A stretch of 20,791 bases of DNA, from the NCBI GenBank assembly GCA_002269645.1, contig NIVC01002365.1, positions 1 through 20,791 of the forward strand. Direction: 5' to 3'. This stretch comes from Macrostomum lignano. Taxonomy: Eukaryota. Each line of letters starts with the position of its first letter. The stretch's first letter is position 1. The position numbers and the translations under genes were made by a program. The notes under the pieces are model-generated. The model was not told the DNA's origin. It ran no database searches and saw only the letters and a program-made list of their open reading frames with translations. This document shows, in pieces, positions 1,180 to 20,748 of this stretch.

Positions 1180-2476
1180 CCATGAGCCTTGAGATCTCAG
1201 CATTTCCCCAGTAAGCCTTTAGATCTCAGCAATTCCCCCAGTAAGCCTTGACATCCCAGTAATTCCCCCAGTAAGCCTTGACATCTCAGTAATTCCCCCA
1301 GTAAGCCTTGAGATCTCAGCAATTCCCACCGTAAGCTCTGAGATCTCAAAACTTTTCCCAGTAAGTCTTGAGATCTCAGCATTTCCCCAGTAAGCCTTAA
1401 CATCTCAGCAATTCCCCCAGTAAGCCTTGACATCTCAGCAATTCCCCCAGTAGGCCTTGACATCTCAGTAATTCCCCCAGTTAGCCTTGGCATATCAGCA
1501 ATTCCCCCAGTAAGTCTTGAGATCTCAGCATTTCCCCAGTAAGCCTTGACATCTCAGCAATCCCCCAGTAAGCCTTGACATCCCAGTAATTCCCCCAGTA
1601 AGCCTTGGCATCTCAGTAATTCCCCCAGTAAGCCTTGAGATCTCAGCGATTCCCCCCGTAAGCTCTGAGATTTCAAAACTTTTCCCAGTAAGTCTTGAGA
1701 TCTCAGCATTTCCCCAGTAAGCCTTGACATCTCAGCAATTCCCCCAGTAAGCCTTGACATCTCAGTAATTTCCCCAGTTAGCTTTGGCATATCAGCAATT
1801 CCCCCAGTAAGTCTTGAGATCTCAGCATTTCCCCAGTAAGCCTTAACATCTCAGAAATTTCCCCAGTAAGCCTTGACATCTCAGTAATTTCCCCAGTTAG
1901 CCTTGGCATATCAGCAATTCCCCCAGTAAGCCTTGACATCTCAGTAATTTCCCCAGTTAGCCTTGGCATATCAGCAATTCCCCCAGTAAGCCTTGAGATC
2001 CAAGTAAGCCTTTAGATCTCAGCAATTCCCCCAGTAAGCCTTGACATCTCAGCAATTTCCCCAGTAAGCCTTGACATCTCAGTAATTCCCCCAGTTAGCC
2101 TTGAGATCTCAGCGATTCCCCCCGTAAGCTCTGAGATCTCAAAACTTTTCCCAGTAAGTCTTGAGATCTCAGCATTTCCTCAGTAAGCCTTAACATCTCA
2201 GCAATTCCCCCAGTAAGTCTTGAGATCTCAGCAATTCCCCAGTAAGCCTTGACATCTCAGGAATAACCCCATTAAGCCTCGACATCGCAGCAATTAAACT
2301 CCAGCCTCGACATCTATGCAATTCTCCCAGCGCAGTAATTAGCCTTGACATCCCAACAACCCAACTCCCCTCTCCCAAGAATTCAGCAATCCCCTTATAA
2401 GCCTTGATAACTCAGCAATCCCCTTATAAGCCTTGACAACTCAGCTATTCCCGATGAGCTTAGATATCTTAGCAAG
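1180..2476. repeat. Minisatellite, 29-30 nt unit (CAGCAATTCCCCCAGTAAGCCTTGACATCT), about 40 copies, decaying to ~3120
   Basis: Directly visible tandem units with recurring variant blocks. Confidence 0.95.
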
Positions 2477-3216
2477 TCTTTAATTGATGGTTGACAGCAG
2501 TTAATCTATGATTGAACCAAAACTGACTCTAAGCCTCTAACCCTAACCCATAAGAAAATATTGGAATGTTAGCAATTTCGACAATGAGCCTTGAGCCTCA
2601 GCATTAAAGTAACTTCCTCATAAGCTTTTAAATCTAAATTTCATCGGAAGCCTTGACCTGTCAGTAATTCCCCGTAGAGCCAAAGCATTTAAGTAATTCG
2701 CCCCAAGAGCATTTAATCTTAGCAATTCCTCGATGGATCATTAATGATTGACACGACTATCGCTCTATAATTGAACCCTAAGCCTAACCCTTAACCTGCA
2801 GCAGAATTTCAGCAATTCCCCAATGAGCTTTGGAAATGTTAGTAATTTCCCCATGAGCCTGAAAATTGAGTGACTTTTGATACCTTTTGATATCCTGGCA
2901 CTTGCATTTCAACAATTTATTTCTGCAATTTCACAAATGAACCTTGAAATCAAAGCAATTCTCCCCAGAATGACAATTATAGCAATTCCCCTTGTGCCTT
3001 GAGATCTTATAAATCCTCCCATGAGTATTGATATATCACAGCAATTTTCCATACCAGCATTATGCTCGTAGCAATAGTCTTAGCAGTCTTAACAGTCTTA
3101 GCAATTCCCAATGAGACTTTTACTTTCGACAGGGCGCTTCTTTTATAATTGACATGATGATTCTTGTTCGTTTTTTCTTGCCTTTGCGTTTTCTTCTCTT
3201 TAAAAGAAGTTTTTAA

Positions 3217-3872
3217 TGAAATATTTTAAAATATATGTTACTGTTCTTCTTCTGGTCTCTCACTTCTATGGCTCTATGTCTACTTCAAATATCAATGTGA
3301 GAGCCAAATAACTGAGGCGGCGGATTCAACTGACTTTTCCTGATGATGCAAACACTTGATGGTAACTTACAGACCGTTGTATTTGATGGTCACAATCTCG
3401 AGATGTTTTCTCACAAAAATATAATGTCTAAGGTGGAATTCCAAATAAGAAGCTCGTTCGATTTAAGTCACAAGGTGTTTCTAGTTGTTCGGGTGAACCG
3501 AAGGTTCAGTCTATTGTAAAACGTGGATTGGGTGTTGGTTTAGCTTTAGTAAGTCAATTTATCAGTTTTGGTGTTTGGGTTGAGACCCTAACTATGTTAA
3601 TCAAAATTAGTCAAAAGGAGGTAGGCTGGGAGAAGGGCGAAGGAGAGAAAAGGGGAGGAGAGGCGGAGCGAGAAAGGGGGCGAGCTTCTTGCTTGGTTAA
3701 CATGAGCTTTTATAGTACTTTTCAGTCTTGATCGCATTGGATGGTACATAACTGTTTTTCATTGGTTGAGGTTGGGGTCGTGTCCTCAGCTTTTGCTATT
3801 TGGAGCGCATTCATTGGTTAAGATACATTCAATCTGGATGGGAACTTTCTTGAGTCAAAATGTATCACTTCA
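3217..3872 (-). repeat. 3' LTR (656 bp)
   Basis: Direct repeat of 17519-18175 with the same TG...CA boundaries; preceded on the minus strand by a purine-rich tract. Confidence 0.95.
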
Positions 3873-3887
3873 TTCGCTCTATTTTTC
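3873..3887 (-). promoter_or_regulatory. Polypurine tract (plus-strand primer)
   Basis: Minus strand GAAAAATAGAGCGAA (13/15 purines) abuts the TG of the 3' LTR. Confidence 0.7.
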
Positions 3888-4521
3888 GGGGAAGCGAGGC
3901 CCTCCGAGCGCATAAAAACAGAAAAAAGTATAGCAGGGGGTTAAAATTGATAAAATTGCAGAAAAAGATAACGCATTGTAGTGAACGAGAAAAGTTGTCG
4001 CAGAAAAAATAGTGCGCAGTGAATAATATTAGCAAAAATGTTTGAGTAAAAGGGAACCAATTTAAGCAAGGTAACATAGGTTAAAGTACAACATCAGTTT
4101 AAATAGCGAAAGAAGGGATAGCGCAGAGGGCCTTTAGTTAGGCGAAGCTAAACTAGCTAGCAAGGATGGAATAAAACGCAGCGAGGGTAACCAAAAAATC
4201 GATAAAATAGGTGTACAGAGCAAAATGGAGGTTTAGCGACGCAAGCTTAAAGTGAAAACGCGTTGAGTTAAAAGGAGGGTAATAAAAATCATTGTACAGC
4301 GAAAGTGGGGGGGTTAGCGAGGAACCGCGCAGCTACGAGTAATAAATCATGTACAAGGTAGAAGTTAAATTTTTTTTTTAACTGGGGAACGAAAGGGAGA
4401 TAAAAATTCGAGGAAAAAGTGTACAGTCCAAAGGGGTATATAACACAAAGCTTAAAATGGAGCAAGGCGAGTTAAGCGATTTTTTAACTGACGGTTAATA
4501 ATCAGGTAAATTCGATTCATC

Positions 4522-4782
4522 ATGAGCACAAGGAAGAACTTGCGGTTTTTGCTAGGCGACTTAGCAAAGCGGTCCCAAGATGATTGGGACCTTGGCGACA
4601 GGCGGTGGGCGATCACTCTCGTCCTTCTCGCTGTGCTGGGAGTGCTGGTGCTGCTGCTGCTGCTGTGCCAATGTTGCCGTTGCTGTCGTTGTTGTCGGCG
4701 CAACTGCTGCAGGTCGGGCGCGCCTGGAGCGTCGACTGCGGTAGCAGATGTAGAGGCGCCGCCAGCGGAGTCGGCGGTGTAA
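4522..4782 (+). CDS. Antisense small membrane protein (86 aa) with one TM helix and Cys/Arg cluster
   Basis: ATG 4522; hydrophilic 28-aa N-terminus, TM WAITLVLLAVLGVLVLLLLL, then CQCCRCCRCCRRNCCR; TATATAA at 4437-4443 upstream on the same strand. Confidence 0.6.
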   Translation: MSTRKNLRFLLGDLAKRSQDDWDLGDRRWAITLVLLAVLGVLVLLLLLCQCCRCCRCCRRNCCRSGAPGASTAVADVEAPPAESAV

Positions 4783-5102
4783 GAGCCGAGCTGCTTTGCT
4801 GGTTCGTCCGGCCTTCTGAACGCAACAACGGCCCTTTTCAGGGCCACCACCTGATGTGATACCGAAGTTGTCAGATGAGCAGACTGTGCAGTCATGAGAG
4901 AGCAGGCGTTATTGGGCCGTATGCTTTAGTGCTAGTTGGTTGACTTAGATGAAAGCAGCGCCAGGGACAGAGCGATTTGCAGAGACCAGGCATAGCGTAG
5001 GGCGATGGCTGCGTAGATCAAGGTTGTGGCTTGAATTTGGTTGAAGCAGCGCCAGAGACAGCAATTGGCAGTGACCAGGTAGAGAGCAGCAGTCATGTAG
5101 GT

Positions 5103-5156
5103 CAGGGTTGGACAGGGTTGAGCAGGGTTGAGCAGGGTTGAGCAGGGTTGAGCAGG
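5103..5156. repeat. 10-nt tandem repeat CAGGGTTGAG, about 5 copies
   Basis: One variant copy (5103) then four perfect copies (5113-5152). Confidence 0.9.
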
Positions 5157-5340: not shown

Positions 5341-6297
5341 TTAAAATAGTGAGCGATGATGGTGAATCAAGTCATAAAAAAGAGCATATGCCAGTCGAGC
5401 AAAATTAATATTAAGATCAGAAGGAGGAGAATGCTGAATACGCTTGATGGAGAAGGTATGAAGAGCGGCATACTCTGGCAAGGTGTTAGGATAGCCAACA
5501 AGATCATTTCGTATACTGTGAATATCGTATAAATATCGACGAAGCGGAGGACAAGAGAAAGGAAAGATAGTATGGGCAACTACCGAGCGAGAATAAAAAT
5601 CGATAATTATAAAAGCAAAGTTTCTTGAACGCGTTGAGAGAATGAAAACAGCGTGGGTAAAGAAAAAATTGTGCGGATACAAACGATTGAGCGTGCGTAT
5701 CATAGCTTTCTTAGTAGCACGAGGAGAAAATGGAGGAAAAATTTGATAAACATAAGGGGCGAGAGAATCGAAGGAGGTTAAATAATTTTGGAGCGTAGAA
5801 GTTAACTGCTGCGCCGAAAGATTAGCAGCATCATGGCGGAATTGTTGCCATGGGTAGCGCAGAGAGGAAAGCAACAGAGGCCAAGTGTCTTGGTTAAAGC
5901 GCATGCATGGTTGAGGGAGAGTAGAAGTAGAGAGTTGAAAGAAATCGTCGATAGACATATTAGGAGAAAAAAGAAAATGTAGGATTGGTACAAAGATGCG
6001 GCTGAGAACATCGTTCATAGTGGGAGAAAAGTTCTGTATACGTGGTCGTGAGTGAGTACGACGCAGCATACCAAATAGACTAATTCGTAGAACGCGGAGC
6101 ATTTTAGGATAAAAGCAATGGCAGCGGATAACATAAAAACGAGAGAAGAAAGCGGAGGCCATGCGTAGCCGTTGGGGTTCACCAATAGTTTCAGAATAAA
6201 ATATTGCTTCAGTGAACCAAGCAACAACGGTTGCGAGGCAAATAAGATCATGATTTAACTGTGGTCGGATATCCACTGGTTGCGGAAATGGATCCAT
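5341..6297 (-). CDS. Accessory ORF downstream of pol, unknown function (318 aa)
   Basis: Uninterrupted ATG-to-TAA ORF (MDPFPQPVDIRP...HHHRSLF), non-repetitive globular-looking composition, same strand as pol; no family recognised with confidence. Confidence 0.65.
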   Translation of the reverse strand: MDPFPQPVDIRPQLNHDLICLATVVAWFTEAIFYSETIGEPQRLRMASAFFSRFYVIRCHCFYPKMLRVLRISLFGMLRRTHSRPRIQNFSPTMNDVLSRIFVPILHFLFSPNMSIDDFFQLSTSTLPQPCMRFNQDTWPLLLSSLRYPWQQFRHDAANLSAQQLTSTLQNYLTSFDSLAPYVYQIFPPFSPRATKKAMIRTLNRLYPHNFFFTHAVFILSTRSRNFAFIIIDFYSRSVVAHTIFPFSCPPLRRYLYDIHSIRNDLVGYPNTLPEYAALHTFSIKRIQHSPPSDLNINFARLAYALFYDLIHHHRSLF

Positions 6298-6310: not shown

Positions 6311-6442
6311 AAAGGAGAAAAGCAATAGATACACAAAATATTGTTTTAGCGTGCGAGCTCTGCAATGTAAAGAGGGAAAGGAGAAAAGCAATAGATACAC
6401 AAAATATTGTTTTAGCTTTTGCTCTGATGTAAAGAGGGAAAA
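6311..6442. repeat. About 66-nt tandem duplication between pol and the accessory ORF
   Basis: AAAGGAGAAAAGCAATAGATACACAAAATATTGTTTTAGC at 6311 and 6377; ATGTAAAGAGGGAAA also repeated. Confidence 0.85.
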
Positions 6443-6644: not shown

Positions 6645-9600
6645 TCACGACTTCTTGTTCTTTGATCTTAGGTTGTAGCCATGCGTCTGTGGCTGAACTG
6701 GTGGCTCATCAGTAGACGTGGTTTGCAGCGCGATGGACTTGCTCAATGGCGGCCGATGGTTGTGGTGGACCTGAATGTCATCAGTTGTGAACTCAGGTAG
6801 GTGACTAGGTCCAGCGCTGAGTCCATCTCCAGGCCATGGTTTCAGCTTGGAGGCATGCACCACGATTGGTCGTTCGCTTGGTCGGTTGACGTCAGAAATC
6901 AGTGCGTTCTGATCGGAGAGCCATGCTAATAGACGCATTGGGCCACGATAAGGATTGGAGAATTTTGTCTCCTTTGTTGCTGAGACATCCAAGTAGCATC
7001 GTGCACCTGGGCGTATGTAGCGGCGGTTGATCTTCTTGTCAGAGTTTTCAGCGCGCTGTTCAGCTGAGTTGTGCAGAAGTTCCTTGGCGACTTCTCTGGC
7101 AAGCAAAATAGCTGAACAGGTCAAATTGACTGGTTTAATAACGTCCATGTATGCAGTTGTCTGGTGTTCCATGATCCGTGCGTTGGGTGGCAGGAAGTCT
7201 CGAGCGAAGAACAAGTAGAATGGTGATTCATTCATCGTTGAGTGTGCGGCGGTATTGATTGCTAGTGTCACCGCAGGTAGGAAGTCAATCCAGAGATCTG
7301 GTTTGTCATGGACAAAGGCCGTAAGAGTTTGCTTCAGTGTCTTGTGTGCGCGTTCGACGAAGTTGCTGGATGGTTGGTACACCGAGGTGTAGATTAGATG
7401 GATTCCAAGGGCACCCATAAACTCTCGAAATTCTTGCGAGATGAATTGGGGTCCGTTATCTGAGATGATGTGTGCTGGTAGTCCTGCGAAGGCGAACACA
7501 CGGTTGAAGAGACTGTTGCAGATGGTTGCAGAAGTTGTCTCAGTTAGCGGGATTGTGAACAGGAATTTGCTAACGCCGCATTGGGCCGTGAGTATGTACT
7601 TGTAGACGTCGCGGCCGTGTGAAGCTGGTGGCAGTGGACCTACAAGGTCGATAGCCAAATGAGAGAAAACCTCGTTGAATTTGACGGCTTTGTGCAGCGG
7701 TCGCAGTCGAGGTGCTGTTTTCGCTTTGTGGCAGATTTCGCAGTTGTTAACGAAATTGAAGACGTCTTGCCGTAGTGTAGGCCAGTAGTAGAAATGACTG
7801 ATTTTGTCTGCTGTCTTTTGGTGACCTAGATGACCACCAAGGGCTGTCGAGTGGTTACTTGTCAAAAGAGCTTCACGGTAGCGTGTTGGTATCACGAGGC
7901 GGCTTCGTCCTTCGTCATCTTCAAAGTATAGAGTGTTTCCGTCCAGGAAATAACGTGCCAGGTGTCGGCGAACATATTGTTGGTCTTTCTTGGACAGCTC
8001 GTGAGTGGGTGATTTTTCCGATAGAAGTGCTTTGATTGTTGACAGTAATGGGTCTTGATCAATGGCATCCTGCAGTCCGTTGAATGTTGACAGCGATTGT
8101 ATCTGACAGACTTTGGGGATGCGCGAAAGGCAGTCCGCTACTACATTTGATTTGCCTTTCACATAGTTGAGAGTGAAGTTGTAATCTTGTAGCGCTAGAA
8201 TCCACTTCTGAAGTCGTTTTGAAATTGGCTGCTTGTCACTGAATAGACTCTTGAGTGGCTGGTGATCAGTGAAGACGTGGAACTGTTGGTAAGAAGCGTA
8301 GAGGAACACGTGTAGCTTCTTTATTGCCCAATAGATGGCGTATGCTTCGCGTTCAATCGGTGGATAGCGTTGTTCGGTTGGACTTAACGTCTTAGAATGT
8401 AGGCAACCGGGCGTTGGTGGTTGCTGTCGTCTAGCTGTGAGAGTACTGCTCCAATGGCGGTATCCGAGGCATCAGTGTGCAGGAAGTACGGTTTTCGCGG
8501 ATTTGGATGAACCAGTAGTATATCCGTAGAGAGAAGTTGTTTCAGCTTTTCAAAGGCTGTTTGCGCAGCGTTCGTCCAGACGAATTTGTTGGGTTTCGAA
8601 GATAATACTCAGAAGTGGCTGTACTACTCGTGAGTAGCCAGCAATGTGCGTTCGGTAGAAATTTGCAAGTCCAAGGAAAGATTGTAGTTGTTTAACCGTT
8701 TGAGGCACAGGAAAGGTCTTGATTTTCTCGATGAGGCTGGGGCTGGTCTAATGCCTTGAGCAGAAACAACAAATCCAAGATATTGTACCTCTGTTTTAGC
8801 AAAGATGCATTTTCGTAGTGAAATTCGCAATCCATGATGTCGTAACTTTTGGAAGAAGCGTTCGATTTCTTTGAGCATGCCGGTGAAGTCTTCGGCGATG
8901 AGCATGACGTCATCCAAGTAGGCAATCTGATTTGGAGAGTCAGCTGTTAACAATGCTACAAGACGGCACATTAAGCTAGGACTGGACTTGAGTCCTTGAG
9001 GTAGTCGATTGAATTCCCAAAGTAGGCCGTTGGGTGCAATGAACGCAGTGTATTTTGTGCTTTCTGGATCGATCCGAACTTGGTAGAAAGCATCTGCTAG
9101 GTCACAGAGTGTGTACAGTTTAGCGTTCTTCAATCGATGTAGCAAATCCGGAATCTTAGGAGGTCGGATGCTAGGAGCACGAATTAGCTTGTTCAGTTTT
9201 CGGTAATCCGTCACGAGTCTTAGTTGTCGGCGACCTTGAGCGTCGAGCGTCTTCTTTTCCACGAGAAGACATGGACTTGAGTATTCAGATTCACTCGGAC
9301 TGATGATTCCTTTTTGACGGAAGTTTTCGATGAGCTCATCAAACCGTTCTTGTAGTCCATGAGCGATTGGATAGGGTCTGGACGTGACTGGCTCAGAGTG
9401 TGGGTGTAGATGCAGGTGAGCCGTGTATTGGGTAGAGCAACCCATGTCGGTTGGCAGTAGTGCCAAGACGTCACGGTACTTGTTCATTAGAGTAACTAAT
9501 TGTTCACTCTGCTCGGTTGAGAGGTGCTGGTTGGCTTGTTTGAGTTGAGTACGGATCATGTCAGTCGTAGGTGCTTCTTGTTGCAGCGTGCGGAGACTGT

Positions 9601-10587
9601 TGATTTGAGCTGCTGGCGCACGATGTTGTAGTCAGACATGTTAGCCAGATTTCCAATGACTTGTTGAGGATGCAAGGTTTGCGTTGTCAGCGACGGGTTG
9701 GCAATTTCCACAGTGATAGTTTGTCCGTCCGGGTTGACAGAAACAAGGCAAGTTGGTATCATCAACTGGTGTTTCTGGATCGTGTGGTCCTTAGGGACGA
9801 ACAGGACAGGAATCGTTGGCTCATGTCGAGAAGAGAGTTTCAGCGTGACTTGGTGCGTTGTCTGTGGTGGTAACTCTAGCTTGTTTTGCATCACCGCAGA
9901 GGTTTCTTGCAACTGTTGGATGGAGTTGAGCATCGCAAATTGCTCATTGCCAAGCTTAGCTGTCGCTTTCGAGTAGTCGAATTGTAGTGGTATTCCCAGT
10001 GACTTAAAGGTTTCTACTCCTAAGAGCAAATCATAGTCAGCGTCGGGGGTGTCGAGCACAAAGGCCGATATCTTGTGGTTGCGTCCATCGATTTCGAGAT
10101 CAAAAGTAGCCTTTTTGTTGAGGTTTAGTTGTTGTCCTCCTGCACAAATGGCGTTCATGTTGGTGTCTTGTAATGGTACTCGAAGCTTTTTGGCGAATGC
10201 CGGTGAGATGCAGGAGATCGAGGCGCCGCTGTCAATGAGGGCGGTGCATCTGTGTCGAGTATGCGGTGCGTTGCGGCACCACAGGTTGATCATTGTTGCT
10301 GTTGTTAGGTGCTTCAAAACAAAGGCGTATGAGTAGTTTGCTGGCCATTTTGGAACTTTCGGTTCTGGTGGTGGTCTCCGTGGTGGCGGAAGGGTGGCAC
10401 GAAGTTCAATCGTTTCGATGGGTGCCGAAGGTGTTGGCGCTCGTCTGGTGGTATCAGTTGCTGTTGTTGGGAGTAGTCGTTTCGTGATTCCACTTGAGTT
10501 GGAGTTCGTTGTTGCCGCAGCACTTGTATAGTGTGCGTTCTGCCGTAACGGATGGTGCTGGCGACGCAGAGTCGGCCAAGATTGCAC
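6645..10587 (-). CDS. pol: Pol: aspartic protease, RT, RNase H, integrase; frame breaks near 9620, 8741, 8610, 8397
   Basis: ALIDSGAS (DSG 10233-10225) and DLLLG; DYRKLN, DLADAFYQ, LPQGLKSSP, YLDD (8920-8909), YLGF; LHTDASD, EREAYAI, TDHQPL; H-H-C-C zinc finger, IDLVGPL, SDNGPQF, VERAHKT; ends GYNLRSKNKKS. Confidence 0.96.
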
Positions 10588-13378
10588 ACGAAGATAATAA
10601 CGGCAATGTAGACGATTACAGCTGCTGTTAAGACGAACTTTTCTTGATAGTTTGCGACTAGTCGATCCCAGTTAAATATCGACGAAGACCATAGATTGAA
10701 GAGAGCTAGTTTTGAGTCCAGGAATGCACTGTCAGCATGGGCTGTCCTGTGTCGTGTTCGATTCGGAAGTTTGAAAACTGTAATCAGAAAATCGCGAGTT
10801 TGCATGAACTGGTGCATTAGGTCGGTCACCGTTATTGGGCTACGAAGTGAAGTATAATTGATATCTCCCATAGGTTTGAAGATGCTCTCGGAGACGGAAG
10901 TTTGCAAATCGGACAATCGATAGTTTTCATCGGATCTGACATTAGCGGTTGTAGGTTCAAACCTCGAAAAATTTAGTGTGGTCTTGAATAGCATCGATTG
11001 TTTAGGCAGGTAGTAGTGTGGGAAGGCGTCGCATGAGATTAGAGCTGGAGTAGCTGTGGAGACAATACGAGTCGTTGTATCCAAAAATCCAAGAACGGTA
11101 TAATTTTGTAGGCGGAATTCCAGTGGGGGCGCGTGAAGCATTGGTTCGTCTTGTACTTTGGTTGGACAAAGCGAAACTGATGTAGGGGTTTGCACTGGTA
11201 GACGAAGAGGTATCCAGCAATGGATCTAGCTCGCAAGAAAGGATCATTTAATAAGAGTCGAGCAGCGAGCGTTGGTTGTGTGTAGTATAACTGTCGATTG
11301 TACTTGAGATTAGTTGCGTACATCAGGCATTGAGTAGTTGCCAGCTGCCTCTGTACTTGGAGAAGATCTTTTCGAGCTTTACTAGCAGCTCCTTGTAGTT
11401 GTCCAGCAAGAAGTTCAGCGGATGCGAACGTTGATGAAAGTTGCGCAGTAGAGTTGCCTGAAGGGGCTGCGATGGTTTTGTCATCTGTGCTTCGCTTGTT
11501 GCGTGGTAGTAGTAGGAGATCCGGTTGACCACCTTGTGGTTCGTGATATGGAACTGCTAGATTCGTATGAATAGAAGCCAGTTGTGGATCTGTTGTTGTC
11601 GCTGGTGAGTTTGTCGTGAAGGTTGAGGTTGCAGACTTTGCTGGTGCACTGGTTGTGCTGCTAGAGGTTGAGGTTGTTGGCGGTAAAGTGGTGGTGGTAC
11701 GAGGTTGTGTCGTCACTTTTGTAGTCATCGTAGTTGAATCTGCTGTCGTTGTTGCTGCTGAGGTTGTAGCAGTGGTGGTTGTTGAAGTTGTCGGTGTTAC
11801 GGTTGTGGTAGGTATTGTTGTCGTTGTAGTCGGTGGCATTGTCGTCGTAGCTGGTGGTGTTGTCATTGTAGTCGGTGGTGTTGTCGTTGTAGTCGGTGGT
11901 GTTGTCGTTGTAGTCGGTGGTGTTGTCGTTGTAGTCGGTGGTGTTGTCGTTGTAGTCGGTGGTGTTGTCGTTGTAGTCGGTGGTGTTGTCGTTGTCAAAA
12001 TTGTAGTTGTTGGTGTTGATTTTGTAGTAGTTAGTATCGTAGTTGTTGGCGCCATTGTTGTAGAAGTGCTTGACGTCGGTGGATGATCAGGTCGCTCTTG
12101 TCGTAAAGGTTGCGGCGGTAGGAATTGTCGTGACTGAGTTGTCGTAGTGAAAGGATGTTGAGTCGTCGATTGCTGAACGGGTAATATTGTTGGTGGCGTT
12201 GGTAGTATCGCTGGTGGTGAACGACGTTTTTGTCTCGAAGAAGTGGTTTCTTCGCTAGTTTGAGGTTTTGGAGTAGCTTCTTCTAATGGGCTTCGTAAGG
12301 TGGCGAGAAATTCTGCTTCTTTGTTGTCGAGGATGTCTACGTATAGACCTTGCGTTGAAAGGTACAACGTCTTACGGACGCCAGTGCAGGTGAGAGTGTG
12401 AGTCGACGGCACTGGGTTGAAGGTTAGTCCCAATGTTTGATCATTAGTTAAGAACAAGCCTGAGTTTAAGTTGCCTTCAAGAGTACGAAATGGTTTTAAA
12501 GGACAATCAGCGAGTGGTGGAGGTGTCCAAATAAGATTTAGATGTCTTGGTCCTTTCACGTCAATTTGGTAGATTGCTTCAGTTTCCAAAGGATCCCAGG
12601 GGGATGTTAGTATTGGCAAAGGTAGGTTGAAAGCTCGCATTTCTTGTGCAGTTGTTTTAATTGTACAAAATTTGTCGGTGAGTTTGCAGTTGTCCATTGG
12701 GAAGGACAAAGATTCCATTTTTTGATCTGCTGTTGAGTAGGCTGGGATTCCGGTGATCACTGTTGTTACTATTTGTTCTGAATGGGAACCGGGAGTGCAA
12801 CGCACAGCATTTTGCGTGTTGAATGTCGATTGCAGGCGTTGGATAGACTGAGTTGACGCAGTCTTTAACACTAATGATCCATCAGGAGATAGCTTTGTTC
12901 GTGCCCAGTTTTCACAATCAGCTTGAGTGACTGGTTGCGGTTCCAACTCTACCAGGGCGGATGTCCAGGTTCTTATCACCGCCTTATCACATCTAATAGT
13001 GATTTTCTCGCGGAAACAGACAGTCATAACCAGGGAACTGGTTTCCACGTTTGTTGTGTAAAGTTCCAGTTTCAACGGGAGTGTCGGCGTTGTTTGGTGT
13101 TTGAGCTGTTCACAACGGATCTCATGTGGTATCGTGAAAATTCGTGGGATCTGGTTGTACGGACAGACCATTGGTGTGTCAATGAAGCCCTCGTGAGATT
13201 GTCTCTCAATCGATGGTGGAGTTGACGTCGTTACCGGCGTAGCGTTGGCTAGTGCGAAGAGTGAAGTTGCTAGGCACAGGAGAAAAAGTGTCAGTAGTGA
13301 TCGGCGAATTCCGACGGAAGCTTTCACGGTTTTCTCGCGGTTGTTGTTGCTGGTCGGTGGAGTGTAGGTGTCAGTCAT
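10314..13378 (-). CDS. env: Env-like class III (herpesvirus gB / chuvirus G-like) fusion glycoprotein; one -1 break near 11127
   Basis: Signal-like LLTLFLLCLATSLFALANA (13297-13241); Cys-spaced ectodomain; furin motifs RQKRR and RNKR; ATTQC...QPTLAARLLLNDPFLRARSIAGYLFVYQC...CFTRP(P)LEFR...GFLD...ISC resembles gB domains III-IV; sequons NST, NYT, NFS, NYT, NRT; TM FVLTAAVIVYIAVIIFVCNL (10637-10578). Confidence 0.85.
11868..11993 (-). repeat. Coding 21-nt tandem repeat (TTTPPTT) x6 in the env mucin-like domain
   Basis: GTAGTCGGTGGTGTTGTCGTT six perfect copies, with degenerate copies towards 11815. Confidence 0.95.
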
Positions 13379-15151
13379 TCTTTCAACCGTACAAAGGCGG
13401 ATAGAGTTGATAGTCGCAGAAGCAGTAGTCGGTTTTTTGAGTAAGGATTTCAGCTGCTTAGCGTCTCCAGAGTAGCGAATTTCGTTTCCAAAAGTCGGTG
13501 GGCGTTCATCAACTGTAGCAATGTGCATCAGTTGGGCAGACTCGGGAGCGTCGTGAGTCGTCCATCCAATCTGCGGCTGTTGATTCCATCCTAGGTGGGA
13601 CGTTTCAGGGTCCTGAGCAGTGATGGCGCGTATCGGTGGATATTGTTGTTGCGCAAATCTCGGAGGTTGTCGTTGATTGTTGGCGCCGTTGTATCGAGGC
13701 GGATAGCGTTGCTGAGGCCGGTTTCCATAGTCTTGACGGGGTGGAAATCGTGATTGTTGTGTCGCCGGTGGACCGTAGCCTTGTGTACGTTGGGCTCGTA
13801 GTCGGCACTGGTTAATAGAGTGTCCTGGTTTTCGGCAATAGTTACAGGTCAATCGTGGCGGTTCCTGCTGGTAACGATCCCGCGGGGCATCAGAGCCGTA
13901 TTGAGCTGTGTTCCTTCGATCGCTTGAGTTAGGTCGGAAGGGACGAGGTTGTTGGTCATTCCTTCGACGACAGTCGGCGGCATAGTGTCCAGGTCGACCG
14001 CAATGATAACAAGTGGGCTTCTGTTGCATATTAGCGATAGGTGGCTTGGTTTGTGTTTGCAGGGAGGCAACCACCTGCTGATTGGCTTCCTTCGTCGTTT
14101 TTTCTAAGGTAGTTAGACGCTCTGTGAGAGCTTTCAAGTCAGTGCCATCAGAGTCCATGGTGGAGTCGCGGATTTGTTCGGCGCGGATGGCCTTGTTGAT
14201 TAGCGTACTTTCCGTGGTGATATTTTGCTTCAAGAGTTCTCGTTTGATGTAGGGCAGTGCATTGTTGATAGTCGTAGCCATCAGGGTAGCAAGGAAGTCT
14301 CGGTTGCGCTGGTCGATGACAGCTTGGTTCGCGGGTGGTGTTTCCGGACCGGCACCTTCCGGAAATTCTTCCGGTATTTCCGGCATAGCTGACCTGAGCT
14401 TTCGACGAATGTCGGTGAAATAAGACAGGAACGGTTCGCCGTACTGTTGTTTCCGGGTTGTTGCATTATGCAGCGTTAGAGCCGAGCCAATGGTTACTTC
14501 CCGAAGGCGTTGAGATAGTGCCTTAATGGTGGCTGGATAAGAGGCTTGGACTACGGCAGAGAGGCGACTGTATTCGAGTTTAAGAAGGTCATTCAGTAGT
14601 CGCGGGAAGAGCCGAATCTTTGCGTTCTCCGATAGTCCAAAGGAGCGTGTGATCAAGTCGAACTCTTCAGTGAAGGAGCGGAAGTCATGCATTTGGTCGA
14701 TTCCTTTCAGGGATTGACGAATTTCAGCAAGAGCAGTAGCTGAGACGGGATGGTTTGATTGCAATTGCAGACTGCGGTTCATAACATCAGTAAGTTCACG
14801 GACAGCATTTGTCGCTGCAGCATCAACATGGGGAGCGCCGTCCTGATCAGCCATATCTAGAGTAGGTTCTTCAGCAATATCGTTTGGGGCCGGTTGAACT
14901 GTTTCGTCCGCGTCTGTTAGGATGGAACTGGGTGCTGGTGAGTGTGCACGGTTGTATTCAAAATGATCCGCGAGAGGGTTATTAAACTCAACGTTATCTG
15001 GTATAAACAGGTTAGGTACTGGTGAACTATTTCGTGGGAGCTGTTCACCTATTTGGCGGTCAGAAGTTTCTAAATTTTGTTCAGGGGGTCTGTTAATATT
15101 TGAGCTTTGAAAAACTGGTCCGGAACGTAAATCTCGGACAGGTGTGGTCAT
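13379..15151 (-). CDS. gag: Gag (capsid plus nucleocapsid); no stop, continues in frame into env
   Basis: First ATG 15151 (MTTPVRDLRSG); retrotransposon capsid-like segment (FTEEFDLI...RKQQYGEPFLSYFTDIRRKL); zinc knuckles CYHCGRPGHYAADC (14011-13970) and CNYCRKPGHSINQC (13846-13805); Q/P/R-rich tail. Confidence 0.92.
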
Positions 15152-15341
15152 TAACAAGAATTCAATCAATAATTTCAAGGCAACAATAGCACAAAAATGT
15201 AACTAATAGCAAAGTAGAGTGTCAAATTCAAAGTGAGCAAACGGCAGTGGCTTTCAGGGTTGCGGTTGGCGGACTGGCTGGGGAAGGGAGAGAAAGAGAG
15301 ACTGTGTGATTTTTTAACTGTTCTTTTGGAAACTGTGAATC

Positions 15342-15516
15342 TTTTGATCGGTTCTGAAACTTTGAATTTTGAAATTTTGAATTGAACTGCCGTTTTGATC
15401 GGTTCTGAAACTTTGAATTTTGAAATTTTGAATTGAACTGCCGTTTTGATCGGTTCTGAAACTTTGAATTTTGAAATTTTGAATTGAACTGCCGTTTTGA
15501 TCGGTTCTGAAACTTT
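15342..15516. repeat. 51-nt tandem repeat, 3 full copies plus a partial, in the 5' leader
   Basis: TTTTGATCGGTTCTGAAAC restarts at 15342, 15393, 15444, 15495. Confidence 0.95.
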
Positions 15517-16027
15517 TATTGAAACTGAATTTGATAAAGGAGCTCCTGAATGTTGGACTAGACGGACATCAGTGGTGGCCAATAAAATCGAATTTGTATC
15601 ATTGAAGTCGGCAGTATTCTTTTTCTTGAAGTCGGCAGTTTTCTTCTGAGAATTTGTTCTGGCTTTTTGAATTTCGAATTTGAATTTTGAACTATCTGAC
15701 GAGTTTCAGCTAGGGGGTTGATTTCATAATTTTAAGCAAACGTAGAGTAATGTTTTTGTAGTTTTATAAATTTGCTATTTTTTAATTTTTTTGAAAATTT
15801 TATAATTTTTTATTGATCGGACTGATCATTTTGTAACTTTAACATGATAAGAGCAGTACGGATTATACGAGATGAACTATAAGCAATGGTATTGTTTTTT
15901 TTGTGTTTTCAAATTTTATTATTTTTGCGATCTAATGGTTATTTTGAAGTAGTATTTTTGCAATGCAATTATAGACGTAACGAGGACAATGATAGAAAGA
16001 AAACCATGAACAAGAGACAAGGAAAGA

Positions 16028-17022
16028 TTATGGTACATGTATGGAGCTCGGGGAGTCGGTGCTGAGGAACACTAAACATGTATTGCCTTTGGCAATAGGG
16101 AGATGAGAGAAAAGTAGAAGTTGTTTGGATCTTAATCCATCATACAAAAACGGGAAATGGCTAGGAAAGGAAAAAAATTCCTGGGGAAATTGTTTATCAG
16201 AGATCGTGAAAAGGTCGCTGAACCGGAGAGTGAGTGGCAGGATGGAGCTGGCCTGGACAGTTTGATTAAGGAAAAGATTTTCTCGTGGGAAATGAAGTTG
16301 ATTGATGGCTTTAATTAAGAAAGGAGGTCTCTCTAGGAGATTAAGTATGCGCGCGAAGTCTGACTTGGGCAGCTTGTTTAAGATAAGGATTTGTTGGAGG
16401 GCACTGAAGCTGAATAAACACACAAGAAAATTCCCTAGCATCCTAATCTCTACATCAAAATGATCTATAAAGGGCAACCGCCAGAATCAGCAATCCGAAA
16501 AAACAAACTTGGGTCGATGAGGATTTGATGGATGGGGCTCGTGGGCTTTGCAAACAGTGAGTTTGGATTGTTTAATCAAGAAAAAGTGATGGAAGGCTAG
16601 GCAAGCGGTCTACGAAAATAAGCAAGGTTTTCCAGATGAAGCACGCAGGCTTGGCAAACAGCGAATCTTGGGCTTTAATCAAGGAAGATAATGAATGGTT
16701 AGACAAGCAACCTGTCTGATAAGCGAAAAAGTTTTCTGACAGCAAGAAAGTGGTGGCTCCAGATTTTGATTGATGTTTACTGTAGTGACTTGGTTGGAAT
16801 AGCTCGTCAGGTTTTTTTGCGTTTTCGTTCTTTCTTTCGGGCGCTTAACGGCGCAGAGAATCTAAGATAAGCCAGTTTTCTAGATGTGGCCACACACTGG
16901 GAAAAACCGAGGAGGAAATCGAATGGCTCAGTCGCTTTGGAGAGTTTCAAATATATATGAAGAAATCCAGAGCAGACTTTGCTATTCTGTGGAAAAGCAG
17001 TGAAGGAAGAGGCGTCCAACAT
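16028..17022 (-). other. Possible frameshift-broken ORF(s) in the long leader upstream of gag
   Basis: 71-aa ATG ORF (17022-16807) ending RKKERKRKKT, followed by open segments in other frames with recurring SLFAKP, LIKA and QILI peptides, then ORF 16477-16028; no homology recognised. Confidence 0.3.
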
Positions 17023-17503
17023 TAAATAAACTTGAACAATTGATGATGCCGCGGTCTTTTGAAAAATCGAAGCTTTGAAGCTTTAACAATTGAGGATCCG
17101 AATAACTGAATTGAATTTCTGCATTGAAGCTCTGAGGCTTGAGAATAAGAACTCGATATCAGACGTTCGACGACGTTTCTTGAATTGAAGTGAAATTGAA
17201 ATTGTAATTGTTCCGGAACGATAATTTATTGACTTTCATGGATCCTTTGAATTTGAAATAACTTGAATCAGGTCTCAGTGCACTGGACAAAACTTAGAAC
17301 CGATTTGAATTCTGAATTTGAATTTGAGAGCTCGTGATTTACGATTCATTCTTCGAATATGTATTATTGACAGTCTCGAATGCTCAAAGGGGAGGGGGGG
17401 GGGAAGCCAGTCCAACCGTTCACACCCATCAGCCACGCCTATAGCTGTCTACCCCATGCAGGGCATAGCGGCTATTGTGGTGAAAAGCATCGGAGGAAAA
17501 GTA

Positions 17504-17517
17504 CGGTCAGGGAACCA
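17504..17517 (-). promoter_or_regulatory. Primer-binding site complementary to tRNA-Glu 3' end
   Basis: Minus strand TGGTTCCCTGACCG starts 1 nt after the 5' LTR CA; it is the 14-nt complement of ...CGGTCAGGGAACCA, the 3' end of animal tRNA-Glu(CTC) as I recall it. Confidence 0.88.
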
Positions 17518-17518
17518 G

Positions 17519-18175
17519 TGAAATATTTTAAAATATATGTGCGTTATTGTTCTTCTTCTGGTCTCTCACTTCTATGGCTCTTGTTCTACTTCAAATATCA
17601 ATGTGAGAGCCGAATAACTGAGGCGGCGGATTCAACTGACTTTTCCTGATGATGCAAACACTTGATGTTAACTTACAGACCGTTGTATTTGATGGTCACG
17701 ATCTCGAGATGTTTTCTCACAAAATATAATGTCTAAGGTGGAATTCCAAATAAGAAGCTCGTTCGATTTAAGTCACAAGGTGTTTCTAATTGTTCGGGTG
17801 AACCGAAGGTTCAGTCTATTGTAGAACGTGGATTGGGTGTTGGTTTAGCTTTAGTGAGTCAATTTATCAGTTTTAGCGTTTGGGTTGAGACCCTAACTGT
17901 GTTAATCAAAATTAGTCAAAAGGAGGTCGGCTGGGAGAAGGGCGAAGGAGAGAAAAGGCGAGGAGAGGCGGAGCGAGAAAGGGGGGGCTTCTTGCTTGGT
18001 TAACATGAGCTTTTATAGTACTTTTCAGTCTTGATCGCATTGGATGGTACATAACTGTTTTTCATTGGTTGAGATTGGGGTCGTGTCCTCGGCTTTTGTT
18101 ATTTGGAGCGCATTCATTGGTTAAAATACATTGAATCTGGATGGGAACTTTCTTGAGTCAAAATGTATCACTTCA
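17519..18175 (-). repeat. 5' LTR (657 bp)
   Basis: Minus strand starts TGAAGTG and ends TATTTCA (TGAA...TTCA inverted termini); hand alignment to 3217-3872 gives about 20 substitutions and 3 small indels. Confidence 0.95.
18011..18120 (-). promoter_or_regulatory. LTR U3 promoter: three CCAAT boxes and TATAAAA
   Basis: Minus-strand CCAAT at 18120-18116, 18068-18064, 18043-18039, then TATAAAA at 18017-18011; all conserved in the other LTR (TATA 3714-3708). Confidence 0.7.
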
Positions 18176-18419
18176 CTACATGTACATTAGCTTCGACGAG
18201 ATCCTCATGCCTCTTACTAAATGGTGGGTTTTAGCTTGTTTTCATTTGATACTAGTCTGTACTAATTCTTGCAATGTTTTGTTCACTTAAAGTACAATGC
18301 ATCTGTATAGTGCATCTTGCAAAACGACAAAATATAAATGCAAAACTCATCTATACATTATATTATGTGCAATAAAATACTTTGATAAGCAAGACAGAAC
18401 AGATCGTATTTTTAATTCA

Positions 18420-20748
18420 TCAAAGCTTTGGCTGGAACAAAAACTCAATTTTTTTTCTGGCAGCCAGGCCGGCACTCAGGGCGGTCACTGCGCAGCCCAG
18501 CGATGCATTCGAATGCAGCAGGTAAATCTGAAAAATCAATAGTGCGCTTTCAAATCGAATGCTTGGTGAATTCTGTTAAACTTTTAAGAGAGGGGTTGGC
18601 AAACTTCGGCCCGCGAAGCCTCTCTTATCTGAGCCTCGGGTCCTGCGAAAATTCACGATAGAAATCCGGTCCGATCAAGGCCTGCGTCTGCTTTTTAGCT
18701 CTCTTCTCTCTAATAATATCTTCTATTTTCTTTCCTATTCTCTTCTCGTCTCTCCTCTCTCGTCTCTCCTCTCTCTTCTATCCTCTCTCCTCCCTTGTCT
18801 CTCGCCTCTCCTCTCTCCTCTCTCCTCTCTTGTCTCTTCTCTCTCCTCTCTCGTCTCTCCTCTCTCCTCTCTCGTCTCTTCTCTCTTCTCTCTCCTCTCT
18901 CCTCTCTCCTCTCTTCTCTCTCCTCTCTCGTCTCTTCTATCTCCTCTTTCATCTCTCTTCTCTCCTCTCTCCTCTCGTCTCCCGCCTCTCCTCTCTGCTA
19001 TTCTCCCTCGTCTCTTCTCTCTCCTATCTCTTCTCTCCTCTCTCGTCTCTTCTCTCTCCTCTTTCATCTCTCTTCTCTCCTCTCTCCTCTATCGTCTTTC
19101 CTCTCATCTCTTCTATCTCCTCTCTTCTCTCCACTCTCCTCTCTCGTCTCTCCTCTCCCTCTCTCCTCTCTCCTCTCTCGTCTCTTGTTTTTCTTCTCTT
19201 CTTTATTCCCTCGCATCTACTTTCTCCTATCTTTCTTCTCTCCTCTCTCCATAGATTCTCTATGTGGCCCTTGAAGTTAATAAAGTTTGCCTTTATATAA
19301 GAACGAAGCGCGGATGGCAATTCTCACCTCAGTTCCGTCTGGCTTAAGTTCGTTCAGCTCGGATTGCAGCAAATCTTGCAGCTGCAACAGAGAGGCAAAC
19401 AAGTTGCCACCGTAAGAAATCGCCATTGATTTGGGAAAAGTGACACCGTAGGAGCACTGGGCAATGGCTATGATGCTGTTTGCAATAGCTCTCGCATTGC
19501 GGCCCACAATGGCCTTACAGATTACAGCGATGCGGGACACATCGGCACGAGACAGGTTCTGGAGATCAAGGAGTCGACCAAGGTTCGCTGCCAGCTCCTC
19601 GTTAGGCGGACTCTTTTCGACATGCAGGGCGTCGAACAAAGTGAATACTTCGAAGCCTTTTGCTTGGTTTAGCGTCCAGTTCTCTCCAGCTGGTGACCAA
19701 GCATCGATCGCATTCGTTTTGATCAGAATGCGAATGCACCTTTCCAACAGGTGGGCAAACACGCGCCAGAGATAATGCACTCCAGTCGGAGCACCGCTTT
19801 CAGCTCATTCATTACACTTTTATCGAAAACATTCGCCAGATCATTGAGTTCGTTATTCTGCCGATGAAGAAGCCAGCCTCCGAGTTGACAACAACGCAGT
19901 GACCGTTACCCGTTGGTCTTCGGAGCAGCAGACGGTTGTCCAAGCTACACACTTCGAGGAAGTCTGGTCAGTTTCCAGGTAGGCCAGGTTGGCGCCAATC
20001 CGGTGGCACAGTACACCGATGGAACAGTCCGCACTGTTTCCGCCAAGAAATGCCTGATAAACGCCTGACAGCAGGGTGCCCACTGCGTATTATCACCGTA
20101 ACGATTTCTACGGTCAGGTCGATTCTCTTGAACGCTTCCTACAAATAATTTTTGGGAGATTTTACTGCACCATCTCTTGACTTCTGCAATTAGTTTTCAG
20201 GAAAATTCAGGCGAACGGAGATTTTTATGTGAACTTAAGCCTCGAGAAGGGAAGAGGAAAGCATAGGAAATGAAACTCGATCACAATTTCTAGAATGAAA
20301 GCATGCACTTGCATGAAACTTCAGTACGAAGTCGCTCCCACAAAGCCGGGCATTTGATAGCCCTTGGAAGCGGTCTGCACCGTTGCGCTGGCCGGCTGCC
20401 GCTGGGCCTCCACCCAGACGTCAAAGCCGGCTGCAACGCCCATGTAGACGGTGGCGGAGCCGCTCGTGCAGCCACCCGGTTGTCAACGAGCATCTGCTTG
20501 ATGCACAGAGCGACAAAGTCGGAGAACTTGCTCATCTGAGCTCGACGAAGCGACGGAGTCAGGACGAAGGCGCGCTCGTCAACCAGATTTAGCGGACTTC
20601 CGCGTTGAGCGACGCAGCACAATGACAGTTTAATGTAGTGATCGGAGCAGCCAAAGTCCATGGCTAAGCACGTGCCCGCGCCGCCGTGGTAAGTCGGCAA
20701 TGTCGGTACGTAGCACCAGCGGACTGGCAGCCTCTGCTGTTTCGCAGC
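18420..20748 (-). CDS. Divergent hexokinase-like gene, last three exons (20748-~20309, 20138-19328, 18527-18420); 5' end outside window; several frame breaks, possibly a pseudogene
   Basis: Ordered matches to hexokinase motifs: CLAMDFG (~FIALDLGG), FSDFVALCI (~LFDHVAECL), ASKGYQMPGFVGA (~WTKGF..GVEGA), VGTLL..CSIGV...GANLAYLE (~VGTMM..CEVGL..GTNACYME), VVNSEAGFF (~CINTEWGAF), LECIISG (~FEKMISG), VICKAIVGRNARAIA (~VCGVVSRRAAQL), SLGCAV (~SGKGAAL); acceptors TTGCAG, TTGTAG, TTTCAG and donor GTGAGA at 19327. Confidence 0.78.
18700..19255. repeat. Degenerate TC/GA microsatellite (polypyrimidine-polypurine tract) in the last hexokinase-like intron
   Basis: About 550 nt almost only C/T on the plus strand, built of TCTCCTC / TCTCGTC units. 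Confidence 0.95.

What the first reader, a model, noticed from the sequence alone, without database searches (positions are those of the whole stretch)
11492..12235. Mucin-like Thr-rich domain bracketed by two furin sites
Seen: RQKRR (12235-12221) and RNKR (11503-11492) enclose 243 aa dominated by T/P/S, including six identical 21-nt units, which suggests recent expansion. Known: many gB proteins are furin-cleaved in the domain II-III linker; RSV F releases a peptide by double furin cleavage; filovirus GP uses a mucin shield. Inference: an excisable or length-variable O-glycan shield or secreted glycopeptide placed in the gB linker.
Basis: partly seen in the sequence, partly recalled or inferred. 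Interest (0 to 1): 0.7.

Follow-up and report, generated by a model that had tools for sequence, protein, structure and literature searches.

The report
Cut-out mucin in retroelement envelope protein
A virus-like jumping gene of an invertebrate animal has an envelope protein whose flexible hinge has grown into a long, probably sugar-coated stretch with a likely protease cut site at each end, an enlarged version of a hinge already known from herpesvirus envelope proteins.

Summary
Confirmed. RQKRR (12235-12221) and RNKR (11503-11492) enclose 243 aa. The core is 42% Thr, 18% Pro, 8% Ser, has no Cys, and includes a perfect 130-nt run of 21-nt units. They are the only two strict furin motifs in 706 aa of in-frame env (shuffle P about 0.005).

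The host element is a decayed 15-kb Ty3/gypsy LTR element in gag-env-pol order with a herpes-gB-type env, a described class. A profile search (EBV gB, E 1e-13) and an AlphaFold model place the insert exactly between domain II and the domain III helix.

An unbroken Macrostomum lignano relative (P0001) has the same layout: RQSR, 170 aa Thr-rich, RIRR. Its core does not align with ours. Four other relatives have 35-82 aa linkers with only the distal site. So the distal site is the ancestral gB cut, and the mucin and proximal site are lineage-specific additions. The proximal site is strict only here.

Most likely an O-glycosylated spacer cut out in the Golgi. Retention as a shield and a neutral expansion remain open. 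Short PST patches and double cleavage in gB loops are known; this size was not found in my searches. New variant of a known kind; cleavage, glycosylation and function are untested.

The parts
17519..18175 (-). 5' LTR (657 nt, TG...CA)
   Evidence: 95.8% identical to 3217-3872 over 660 columns
17504..17517 (-). Primer-binding site, 1 nt inside the 5' LTR, starting TGG
   Evidence: Sequence. Assignment to tRNA-Glu is recalled; the motif was not found in the paper's PBS table
13967..15151 (-). Gag part of the Gag-Env ORF, up to the first CCHC knuckle (a second knuckle follows at aa 436-449)
   Evidence: Pfam zf-CCHC aa 380-395, E 1e-7; Cys positions; 45% identical to P0001 gag
13247..13315 (-). 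Internal hydrophobic signal/anchor (aa about 613-635) that would put Env in the secretory lumen
   Evidence: Only hydrophobic 19-mer region above 1.5 in the ORF; matching stretch in P0001. Role inferred
12257..13183 (-). Env N-terminal subunit: DIV/DIII N-terminal strands, domain I and PH-like domain II (aa about 657-965)
   Evidence: Model pLDDT mostly 60-90 for residues 22-325; Foldseek top hits herpes gB; PH-like span about 50-329, HCMV gB chain 4ot1_A 119-435 to model 52-308; 40% identical to P0001
12221..12235 (-). Proximal furin-type motif RQKRR (aa 973-977), 8-15 residues after the end of domain II
   Evidence: similar context in P0001 (SSRQSR-SLP versus SSRQKRRSPP)
11504..12220 (-). 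Thr/Pro/Ser-rich mucin-like segment, 239 aa, no Cys, predicted disordered
   Evidence: Composition; pLDDT under 50 over model 325-607
11802..11995 (-). 21-nt tandem array coding (TTPPTTT)n; perfect core 11866-11995
   Evidence: TRF 9.2 copies, 90% matches; unit table
11492..11503 (-). Distal furin motif RNKR (aa 1217-1220), the position of the canonical gB cleavage site
   Evidence: R-X-X-R at this position in 6 of 6 sequences; weak phmmer match to HCMV gB from chain residue 456 of 8vyn/8vym (E about 1)
11279..11437 (-). Domain III core helix (aa 1239-1291)
   Evidence: Helix 603-655 in the model; profile match to EBV gB from residue 460, E 1e-13
10317..11129 (-). Rest of Env (domains IV-V, transmembrane helix 10649-10593, tail) in another frame; gene broken near 11127
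   Evidence: tblastn with P0001 changes frame here; hydropathy
6648..10329 (-). pol (PR-RT-RNase H-IN), broken into several frames
   Evidence: Pfam PR and RT; tblastn with P0001: PR 44%, RT 78%, RH-IN 64%
5341..6297 (-). Extra 318-aa ORF between pol and the 3' LTR, unassigned
   Evidence: no Pfam hit; no informative Atlas hit
3217..3872 (-). 3' LTR, preceded on the minus strand by a purine-rich tract (about 3873-3887)

Best explanation
The segment is a lineage-specific mucin-like expansion of the hypervariable domain II-III loop of a gB-type (class III) Env in a gag-env-pol Ty3/gypsy element. Proposed steps: (1) the internal signal at aa about 613-635 puts Env in the ER lumen (inferred); (2) the roughly 120 Ser/Thr are densely O-glycosylated in the Golgi (inferred from composition); (3) furin-type convertases cut at the ancestral distal site RNKR and, probably less efficiently or later, at the added proximal site RQKR/R (motifs shown, cutting inferred); (4) the fragment of about 244 aa (25 kDa before glycans) has no Cys and is shed, while the two Env subunits stay joined through disulfides between the N-terminal Cys663/Cys680 and the C-terminal Cys1320/Cys1275 (pairing inferred from herpes gB). 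The mucin would thus act as a transient, removable spacer on the precursor. It would cover or restrain the hinge that inverts during fusion until late in secretion, and then leave a compact mature fusogen. This describes the element family; the copy in the window is broken and could not make a membrane-anchored Env as assembled.
For: Position between DII and DIII shown by model and searches. The only two strict furin motifs in 706 aa sit at the two edges of the disordered segment. P0001 repeats the layout (RQSR, 170 aa with T 31%, P 14%, S 9%, no Cys, RIRR). Its core gives no significant alignment with ours, yet both ends look alike by eye (SSRQ.R..S.P..L; L.[VI]PY.H..Q..P.L before the distal site). 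Among the six linkers, a second R-X-X-R occurs only in the two long Thr-rich ones. The four flanking Cys are present in every row of A4 that covers them. KSHV gB has the equivalent disulfides C85-C484 and C68-C528 and a DII-DIII inversion of nearly 180 degrees during fusion (PMC11852774). Precedents for released pieces: RSV p27 (PMC10320223) and the CCHFV mucin-like domain (PMC11324950).
Against: The proximal motif is strict in 1 of 6 sequences only. In P0001 it is minimal R-X-X-R, and two such motifs arise in 2.9% of shuffles of that linker. In the window, a cut after RQKR leaves Arg at P1', and a cut after RQKRR lacks P4 Arg and has Pro at P2' (furin preferences recalled). O-glycans next to a site can block furin (PMC11139210), and the proximal site is surrounded by Ser/Thr. 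RSV p27 is often only partly removed. Four relatives manage with 35-82 aa linkers and one site, so the mucin is not needed for the fold. Only two long examples were found, one of them a decayed copy. No expression or processing data exist.
Confidence: 0.45

Rival explanations
1. Retained shield. Only the ancestral distal site is cut efficiently. The mucin stays as the O-glycosylated C-terminal tail of the N-terminal subunit, like the Ebola GP1 mucin domain or an enlarged KSHV PST patch, and shields the particle or binds mucus or lectins.
For: The distal site is the conserved one (6 of 6). P0006 has a short Thr-rich stretch and only a distal RHGR. KSHV gB has a 14-residue PST patch just before its single furin site. 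The proximal site is weak in P0001 and sits among likely glycosylated residues.
Against: The window has a strict R-X-K-R exactly at the N-terminal edge of the mucin, and there are only two such motifs in 706 aa. The similar proximal context in P0001 is hard to explain if the site is never used.
Confidence: 0.28
2. Neutral tolerated expansion. The DII-DIII loop accepts almost any insertion. Slippage during reverse transcription amplifies in-frame Thr-rich units, and the proximal site is chance or was kept only because it discards the excess. The mucin itself has no function.
For: Linker lengths of 35, 41, 46, 82, 247 and 309 aa with no core conservation. A perfect 21-nt array. Herpes gB loops are highly variable in length and sequence. 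The element carries another perfect tandem array in its 5' leader (51 nt x 3.4).
Against: Thr richness extends well beyond the array and uses several Thr codons. P0001's linker is Thr-rich without any short period, so the composition is shared at protein level by elements that are 40% identical in DI-II. The ends of the fragment look conserved.
Confidence: 0.22
3. Artefact or post-insertion decay. The array length or the motifs arose in this dead copy or in assembly.
For: The copy has about six frame changes relative to P0001, LTRs 4% apart, and no target-site duplication.
Against: The frame is open from gag through the whole linker into DIII. An unbroken single-ORF relative has the same architecture.
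Confidence: 0.05

Closest known systems
HSV/gB-type errantiviruses with GAG-ENV-POL order (Chary and Hayashi, PMC13524379; nematode elements of Sacco et al. 2022, seen only as a citation)
   Same: Ty3/gypsy pol, LTRs and PBS, gB-type env between gag and pol; reported from Nematoda, Bryozoa and Platyhelminthes including one M. lignano element. P0004 resembles the bryozoan C2b DI-II rows by eye.
   Different: The main text has no 'mucin', 'threonine' or 'disordered' and says only that the furin site is not always conserved. The DI-II rows I saw mostly stop at the end of DII, before the linker. This copy is broken and has an extra ORF.
Herpesvirus gB DII-DIII cleavage loop (KSHV, EBV, HCMV, MuHV-4; EHV-1 with two sites)
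   Same: Same position, same distal furin site, disordered and length-variable, PST-rich patch expected to be O-glycosylated, sometimes more than one convertase site (the EHV-1 paper was seen as a title in a reference list only).
   Different: The KSHV loop is 39 aa with a 14-aa PST patch. Here the linker is about 300 aa with a 239-aa mucin and a site at each edge.
RSV F p27
   Same: Two furin sites bracket an internal peptide that can be released or partly retained.
   Different: Class I fusogen; 27 aa; the second cut exposes a fusion peptide. Here no hydrophobic peptide follows RNKR and the fold is class III.
Filovirus GP mucin-like domain
   Same: Long O-glycosylated segment in the N-terminal subunit of a furin-cleaved fusogen, acting as a shield.
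   Different: Class I; a single site in Ebola GP, so the domain stays on GP1.
CCHFV GPC mucin-like domain / GP38
   Same: Mucin-like domain separated by furin and secreted.
   Different: Part of the secreted non-structural products of a bunyavirus precursor, not an insert inside the fusogen (N-terminal position and class II fold recalled).
Tardigrade Hduj_errantivirus_6 Env (supplementary file 2 of PMC13524379)
   Same: Long segment after DII with two R-X-K/R-R motifs (read by eye).
   Different: The segment between the motifs is acidic and helical-looking rather than mucin-like; I saw no comment on it in the paper.

Membership tests
gB-type errantivirus (GAG-ENV-POL Ty3/gypsy) | Ty3/gypsy pol in order PR-RT-RNase H-IN | tested here: met
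   best PDB match of the family profile is Ty3 Gag-Pol
gB-type errantivirus (GAG-ENV-POL Ty3/gypsy) | Flanking LTRs with PBS | tested here: met
   no target-site duplication found
gB-type errantivirus (GAG-ENV-POL Ty3/gypsy) | env between gag and pol, flanked by signal peptide or TM and a C-terminal TM | tested here: met
   (simple hydropathy only)
gB-type errantivirus (GAG-ENV-POL Ty3/gypsy) | Class III fold, domains I-III | tested here: met
   global pTM is low (0.37) and VIA Z values are 5-7, so domain identity, not their arrangement, is supported
gB-type errantivirus (GAG-ENV-POL Ty3/gypsy) | Complete domains IV-V and trimer | tested here: inconclusive
   Only the in-frame piece was folded; partial DIV match to PRV 5ys2; the profile matches EBV gB up to residue 663
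gB-type errantivirus (GAG-ENV-POL Ty3/gypsy) | Uninterrupted ORFs (the paper's criterion for an intact element) | tested here: not met
   About six frame changes versus P0001; P0001 itself is one 2852-aa ORF
gB-type errantivirus (GAG-ENV-POL Ty3/gypsy) | Placement in the published POL tree and cysteine class (C2b) | not tested
   Published sequences could be read but not loaded; resemblance to bryozoan C2b rows by eye only
Mucin-like domain | Long Pro/Thr/Ser-rich, Cys-free, disordered segment in a secretory-lumen protein | tested here: met
   68% PST over 239 aa, no Cys; pLDDT under 50
Mucin-like domain | Dense O-glycosylation | not testable with these tools
   No O-glycosylation predictor or proteomics available
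Doubly furin-excised peptide (RSV p27 type) | Two convertase consensus motifs bracketing the segment | tested here: met
   Two strict motifs in the window
Doubly furin-excised peptide (RSV p27 type) | Both motifs conserved among relatives | tested here: inconclusive
   Distal 6 of 6; proximal strict 1 of 6, minimal in 1 more, absent in the 4 short linkers
Doubly furin-excised peptide (RSV p27 type) | Actual cleavage at both sites and release | not testable with these tools
   Needs bench or proteomic data
Doubly furin-excised peptide (RSV p27 type) | Second cut exposes a class I fusion peptide | tested here: not met
   No hydrophobic window after RNKR; class III fold. It may work like p27 in being removed but is not a member
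Filovirus-type GP mucin shield | Class I fusogen with the mucin retained on GP1 | tested here: not met
   Class III fold; retention itself not testable

The most novel reading that the evidence does not exclude
A clade of flatworm-associated enveloped retroelements has turned the gB hinge into a removable mucin pro-domain. It works as a glycan safety cap on the precursor and is then secreted as a free, repeat-length-variable glycopeptide of 170-240 aa with its own role (decoy for lectins or helper in mucus). That would be a released mucin from inside a class III fusogen, and evidence that these retroelements face selection on an extracellular, infectious stage in an animal without antibodies.
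Probability: 0.25. Interest if true: 0.65.

Novelty: new variant of a known kind. Interest (0 to 1): 0.4.

Why it matters
Whether invertebrate env-carrying Ty3/gypsy elements are really infectious is mostly inferred from intact folds. A mucin with processing sites, present in two diverged elements, is the kind of surface feature expected only if Env passes through the Golgi and meets an extracellular environment. It also shows how far the class III DII-DIII hinge can be enlarged, from about 35 to about 300 residues. The broad class and the short version of the feature are already known, and the copy here is dead, which caps the interest.

Tried and rejected
1. Word-indexed search with the env N-part (415-1322 aa proteins): no hit among 2145 candidates.
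2. Profile search of proteins of 586-2000 aa: only P0004 among 7995 scored, and it missed P0005/P0006 in range, so it is insensitive.
3. Single-sequence fold: mean pLDDT 35, unusable.
4. Alignment A3: mis-registered the mucin against domain III and pol and was discarded. P0003, a chimeric-looking gene model, was left out of A4.
5. Pfam on the window's own env pieces: no significant hit (best PF24664 E 0.048). The ESM Atlas gave PF24664 at 0.83, a lead only.
6. GTDB scan with an RT alignment: 290 pattern matches, none confirmed.
7. P0007-P0013 (33-37% RT identity) were not used. Only P0011 was read, and no env was seen by eye.
8. Class I or RSV-like fusion-peptide exposure was rejected.
9. A pure DNA microsatellite origin of the Thr richness was rejected as the whole explanation.
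10. The 141-aa open stretch in another frame over the array (12086-11664) is taken as a by-product of the repeat.
11. VIA-align gave no Z of 8 or more.
Sister copies, raw reads and eukaryotic assemblies could not be examined; viral and metagenome contig collections and cluster membership stayed unchecked.

Full report
Observation. The minus strand carries a 1370-aa ORF at 15151-11039. RQKRR begins at aa 973 (nt 12235) and RNKR at aa 1217 (nt 11503-11492); the stretch after RQKRR through RNKR is 243 aa. The 239 aa between the motifs are 42% Thr, 18% Pro and 8% Ser with no Cys. A 21-nt array spans 11802-11995 with 9.2 copies. Its perfect core is 130 nt (6.2 units), giving five or six identical units by phase. 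The two motifs are the only strict R-X-K/R-R in env aa 640-1345; shuffles give two or more in 0.5% of 20,000 trials (post hoc). The array explains only part of the Thr richness, since self-similarity covers about 300 of 729 nt and the flanks use several Thr codons. A recent expansion is plausible, but the LTR divergence (21 mismatches, 3 gaps in 660) still allows a perfect 130-nt run 9-12% of the time.

Context. The feature lies in a 14,959-nt LTR element: LTRs at 17519-18175 and 3217-3872, 95.8% identical, a PBS at 17517-17504 and a purine tract before the 3' LTR, with no target-site duplication. Gene order is gag (CCHC knuckle), an internal hydrophobic signal at aa about 613, env, PR, RT, RNase H and integrase, then an unassigned 318-aa ORF. 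A search of 1.84 billion representatives with the 125 aa after RNKR returned four proteins. The best, P0001, is one 2852-aa Gag-Env-Pol ORF that NCBI names from Macrostomum lignano. Against it the window is 45% identical in gag, 40% in env DI-II, 54-67% in env DIII-TM and 78% in RT. It changes frame about six times between 11130 and 8390, once inside env just after the feature. The window is therefore a decayed member of a related family. A flatworm host is likely but is only inferred from this relative. An RT-region search added P0005 and P0006 (59% and 58%) among ten hits; the other seven, at 33-37%, were not used.

Where the insert sits. The window's post-RNKR piece alone gives a weak phmmer match to HCMV gB (E 0.32). 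A profile of eight C-terminal pieces matches EBV gB at E 1.3e-13 from residue 460, and all 44 PDB matches are herpesvirus gB. Relatives hit Pfam PF24664 and PF00606 below their curated cut-offs, except P0004 (PF24664, 31 bits versus 27). An AlphaFold model of aa 637-1340 built on a seven-row alignment is ordered over model residues 22-325 and 608-690 and unordered over 325-607 (mean pLDDT 54, pTM 0.37). Foldseek ranks herpes gB first in the PDB (E 2e-6) and rhabdo-, nyami- and herpesvirus glycoproteins in BFVD (E 1e-9). VIA-align shows a split PH-like domain over about 50-329, with HCMV gB chain 4ot1_A 119-435 matching model 52-308 and PRV domain IV matching 23-691, though all Z are under 8. 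RQKR is model 337-340, just after domain II; RNKR is 581-584, just before the domain III helix at 603.

Comparison of linkers. Six sequences cover the linker (P0002 starts downstream). Measured between the same anchors, the lengths are 309 (window), 247 (P0001), 82 (P0006), 46 (P0005), 41 (P0003) and 35 aa (P0004). All six have R-X-X-R at the distal position, five strict (P0006 has RHGR). A second, proximal motif occurs in two of six: strict RQKR in the window and minimal RQSR in P0001. In P0001 it encloses 170 aa of 31% Thr, 14% Pro and 9% Ser without Cys. The two mucin cores do not align significantly and P0001 has no short period. The ends resemble each other by eye, and P0005 has a similar TR-SLPDVL without a P4 Arg. 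Results against the excision reading: the P0001 proximal site is weak, two minimal motifs arise in 2.9% of shuffles of its linker, and four relatives have no mucin. So the distal site is ancestral, and the mucin and proximal site are additions seen in two elements.

Mechanism. Shown: position, motifs, composition, absence of Cys, conservation of the flanking Cys. Inferred: lumenal topology, O-glycosylation, cleavage, and disulfide linkage of the subunits by analogy to KSHV gB C85-C484 and C68-C528. My preferred reading (0.45) is a removable glycosylated spacer on the hinge that inverts during fusion, shed as a fragment of about 25 kDa plus glycans. A retained shield after a single distal cut (0.28) and a neutral tolerated expansion (0.22) are the main rivals; artefact is unlikely (0.05). 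As assembled, this copy cannot make an anchored Env, so the mechanism concerns the family.

What is known. PMC13524379 describes gB-type errantiviruses in GAG-ENV-POL order in nematodes, bryozoans and flatworms. I saw the outline, section 5 part 1, section 6, section 22, passages, searched rows of supplementary files 1, 2 and 4, and part 1 of file 2. Its figures could not be read, and Figure 5-figure supplement 1 may show linkers. Its text has no 'mucin' or 'threonine'. One tardigrade row has two furin motifs around a non-mucin segment. PMC6784293 (section 5 and passages) says the gB loop is highly variable and can hold more than one site; the EHV-1 paper was seen as a reference title only. 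PMC11852774 (passages) describes a 39-aa KSHV linker with a 14-aa PST patch. PMC3807390, PMC11139210, PMC11324950, PMC10320223, PMC7150890, PMC12649860 and PMC12801592 were seen as passages. Sacco et al. 2022 was not held; that its elements form one continuous ORF is recalled. Searches found no report of a long mucin bracketed by two furin sites in a class III fusogen or retroelement Env. The library lacks most subscription journals, so this is weak evidence of absence.

Verdict. The feature is real, correctly placed and repeated in a diverged relative. It is an extreme version of a known gB hinge in a known class of element: new variant of a known kind, interest 0.4.

Noticed in passing
P0001 (whole), P0005, P0006; window 15151-6648: Gag, Env and Pol are one continuous ORF in P0001, and Env runs in frame into PR-RT-IN in P0005 and P0006. 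This implies a polyprotein that crosses the membrane twice (cytosolic Gag, lumenal Env, cytosolic Pol). A continuous gag-env-pol ORF is recalled for nematode elements.
   Followed up: partly
window 5341-6297 (-): Extra 318-aa ORF between integrase and the 3' LTR. No Pfam hit, no match among stored proteins, and Atlas hits under 0.9 with low recognition, some to C48/C57 peptidase clusters. Unexplained.
   Followed up: partly
window 15152-17503: Unusually long (about 2.35 kb) 5' leader with a perfect 51-nt tandem array of 3.4 copies at 15342-15516.
   Followed up: no
window 3205-3216 and 18176-18187: No target-site duplication and LTRs 4% apart. The element may be a recombinant of two insertions, or the flank was rearranged or mis-assembled.
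   Followed up: partly
P0005 residues about 35-63: A short linker has TR-SLPDVL, resembling P0001's proximal RQSR-SLPDLL, about 25 residues before RRRR. The proximal context may predate the mucin expansion.
   Followed up: partly
PMC13524379 supplementary file 2, Tardigrada Hduj_errantivirus_6: A long post-DII segment with two strict furin motifs, possibly an independent doubly cut linker.
   Followed up: no
BFVD hits: Several class III glycoproteins are unusually long (885, 955 and 1034 aa) and may carry similar inserts; their sequences were not seen.
   Followed up: no
window 4452-4930 (-) and 5103-5156: Low-complexity GC-rich open stretch with CAG-like runs and a 10-nt repeat of 5.4 copies between the extra ORF and the 3' LTR.
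   Followed up: no
window 1185-2452 and 18744-19248: Flanking host repeats: a 30-nt satellite of about 37 copies and a CT-rich microsatellite.
   Followed up: no
window 6311-6416: Exact 40-nt direct repeat, 66 nt apart, just upstream of the extra ORF.
   Followed up: no
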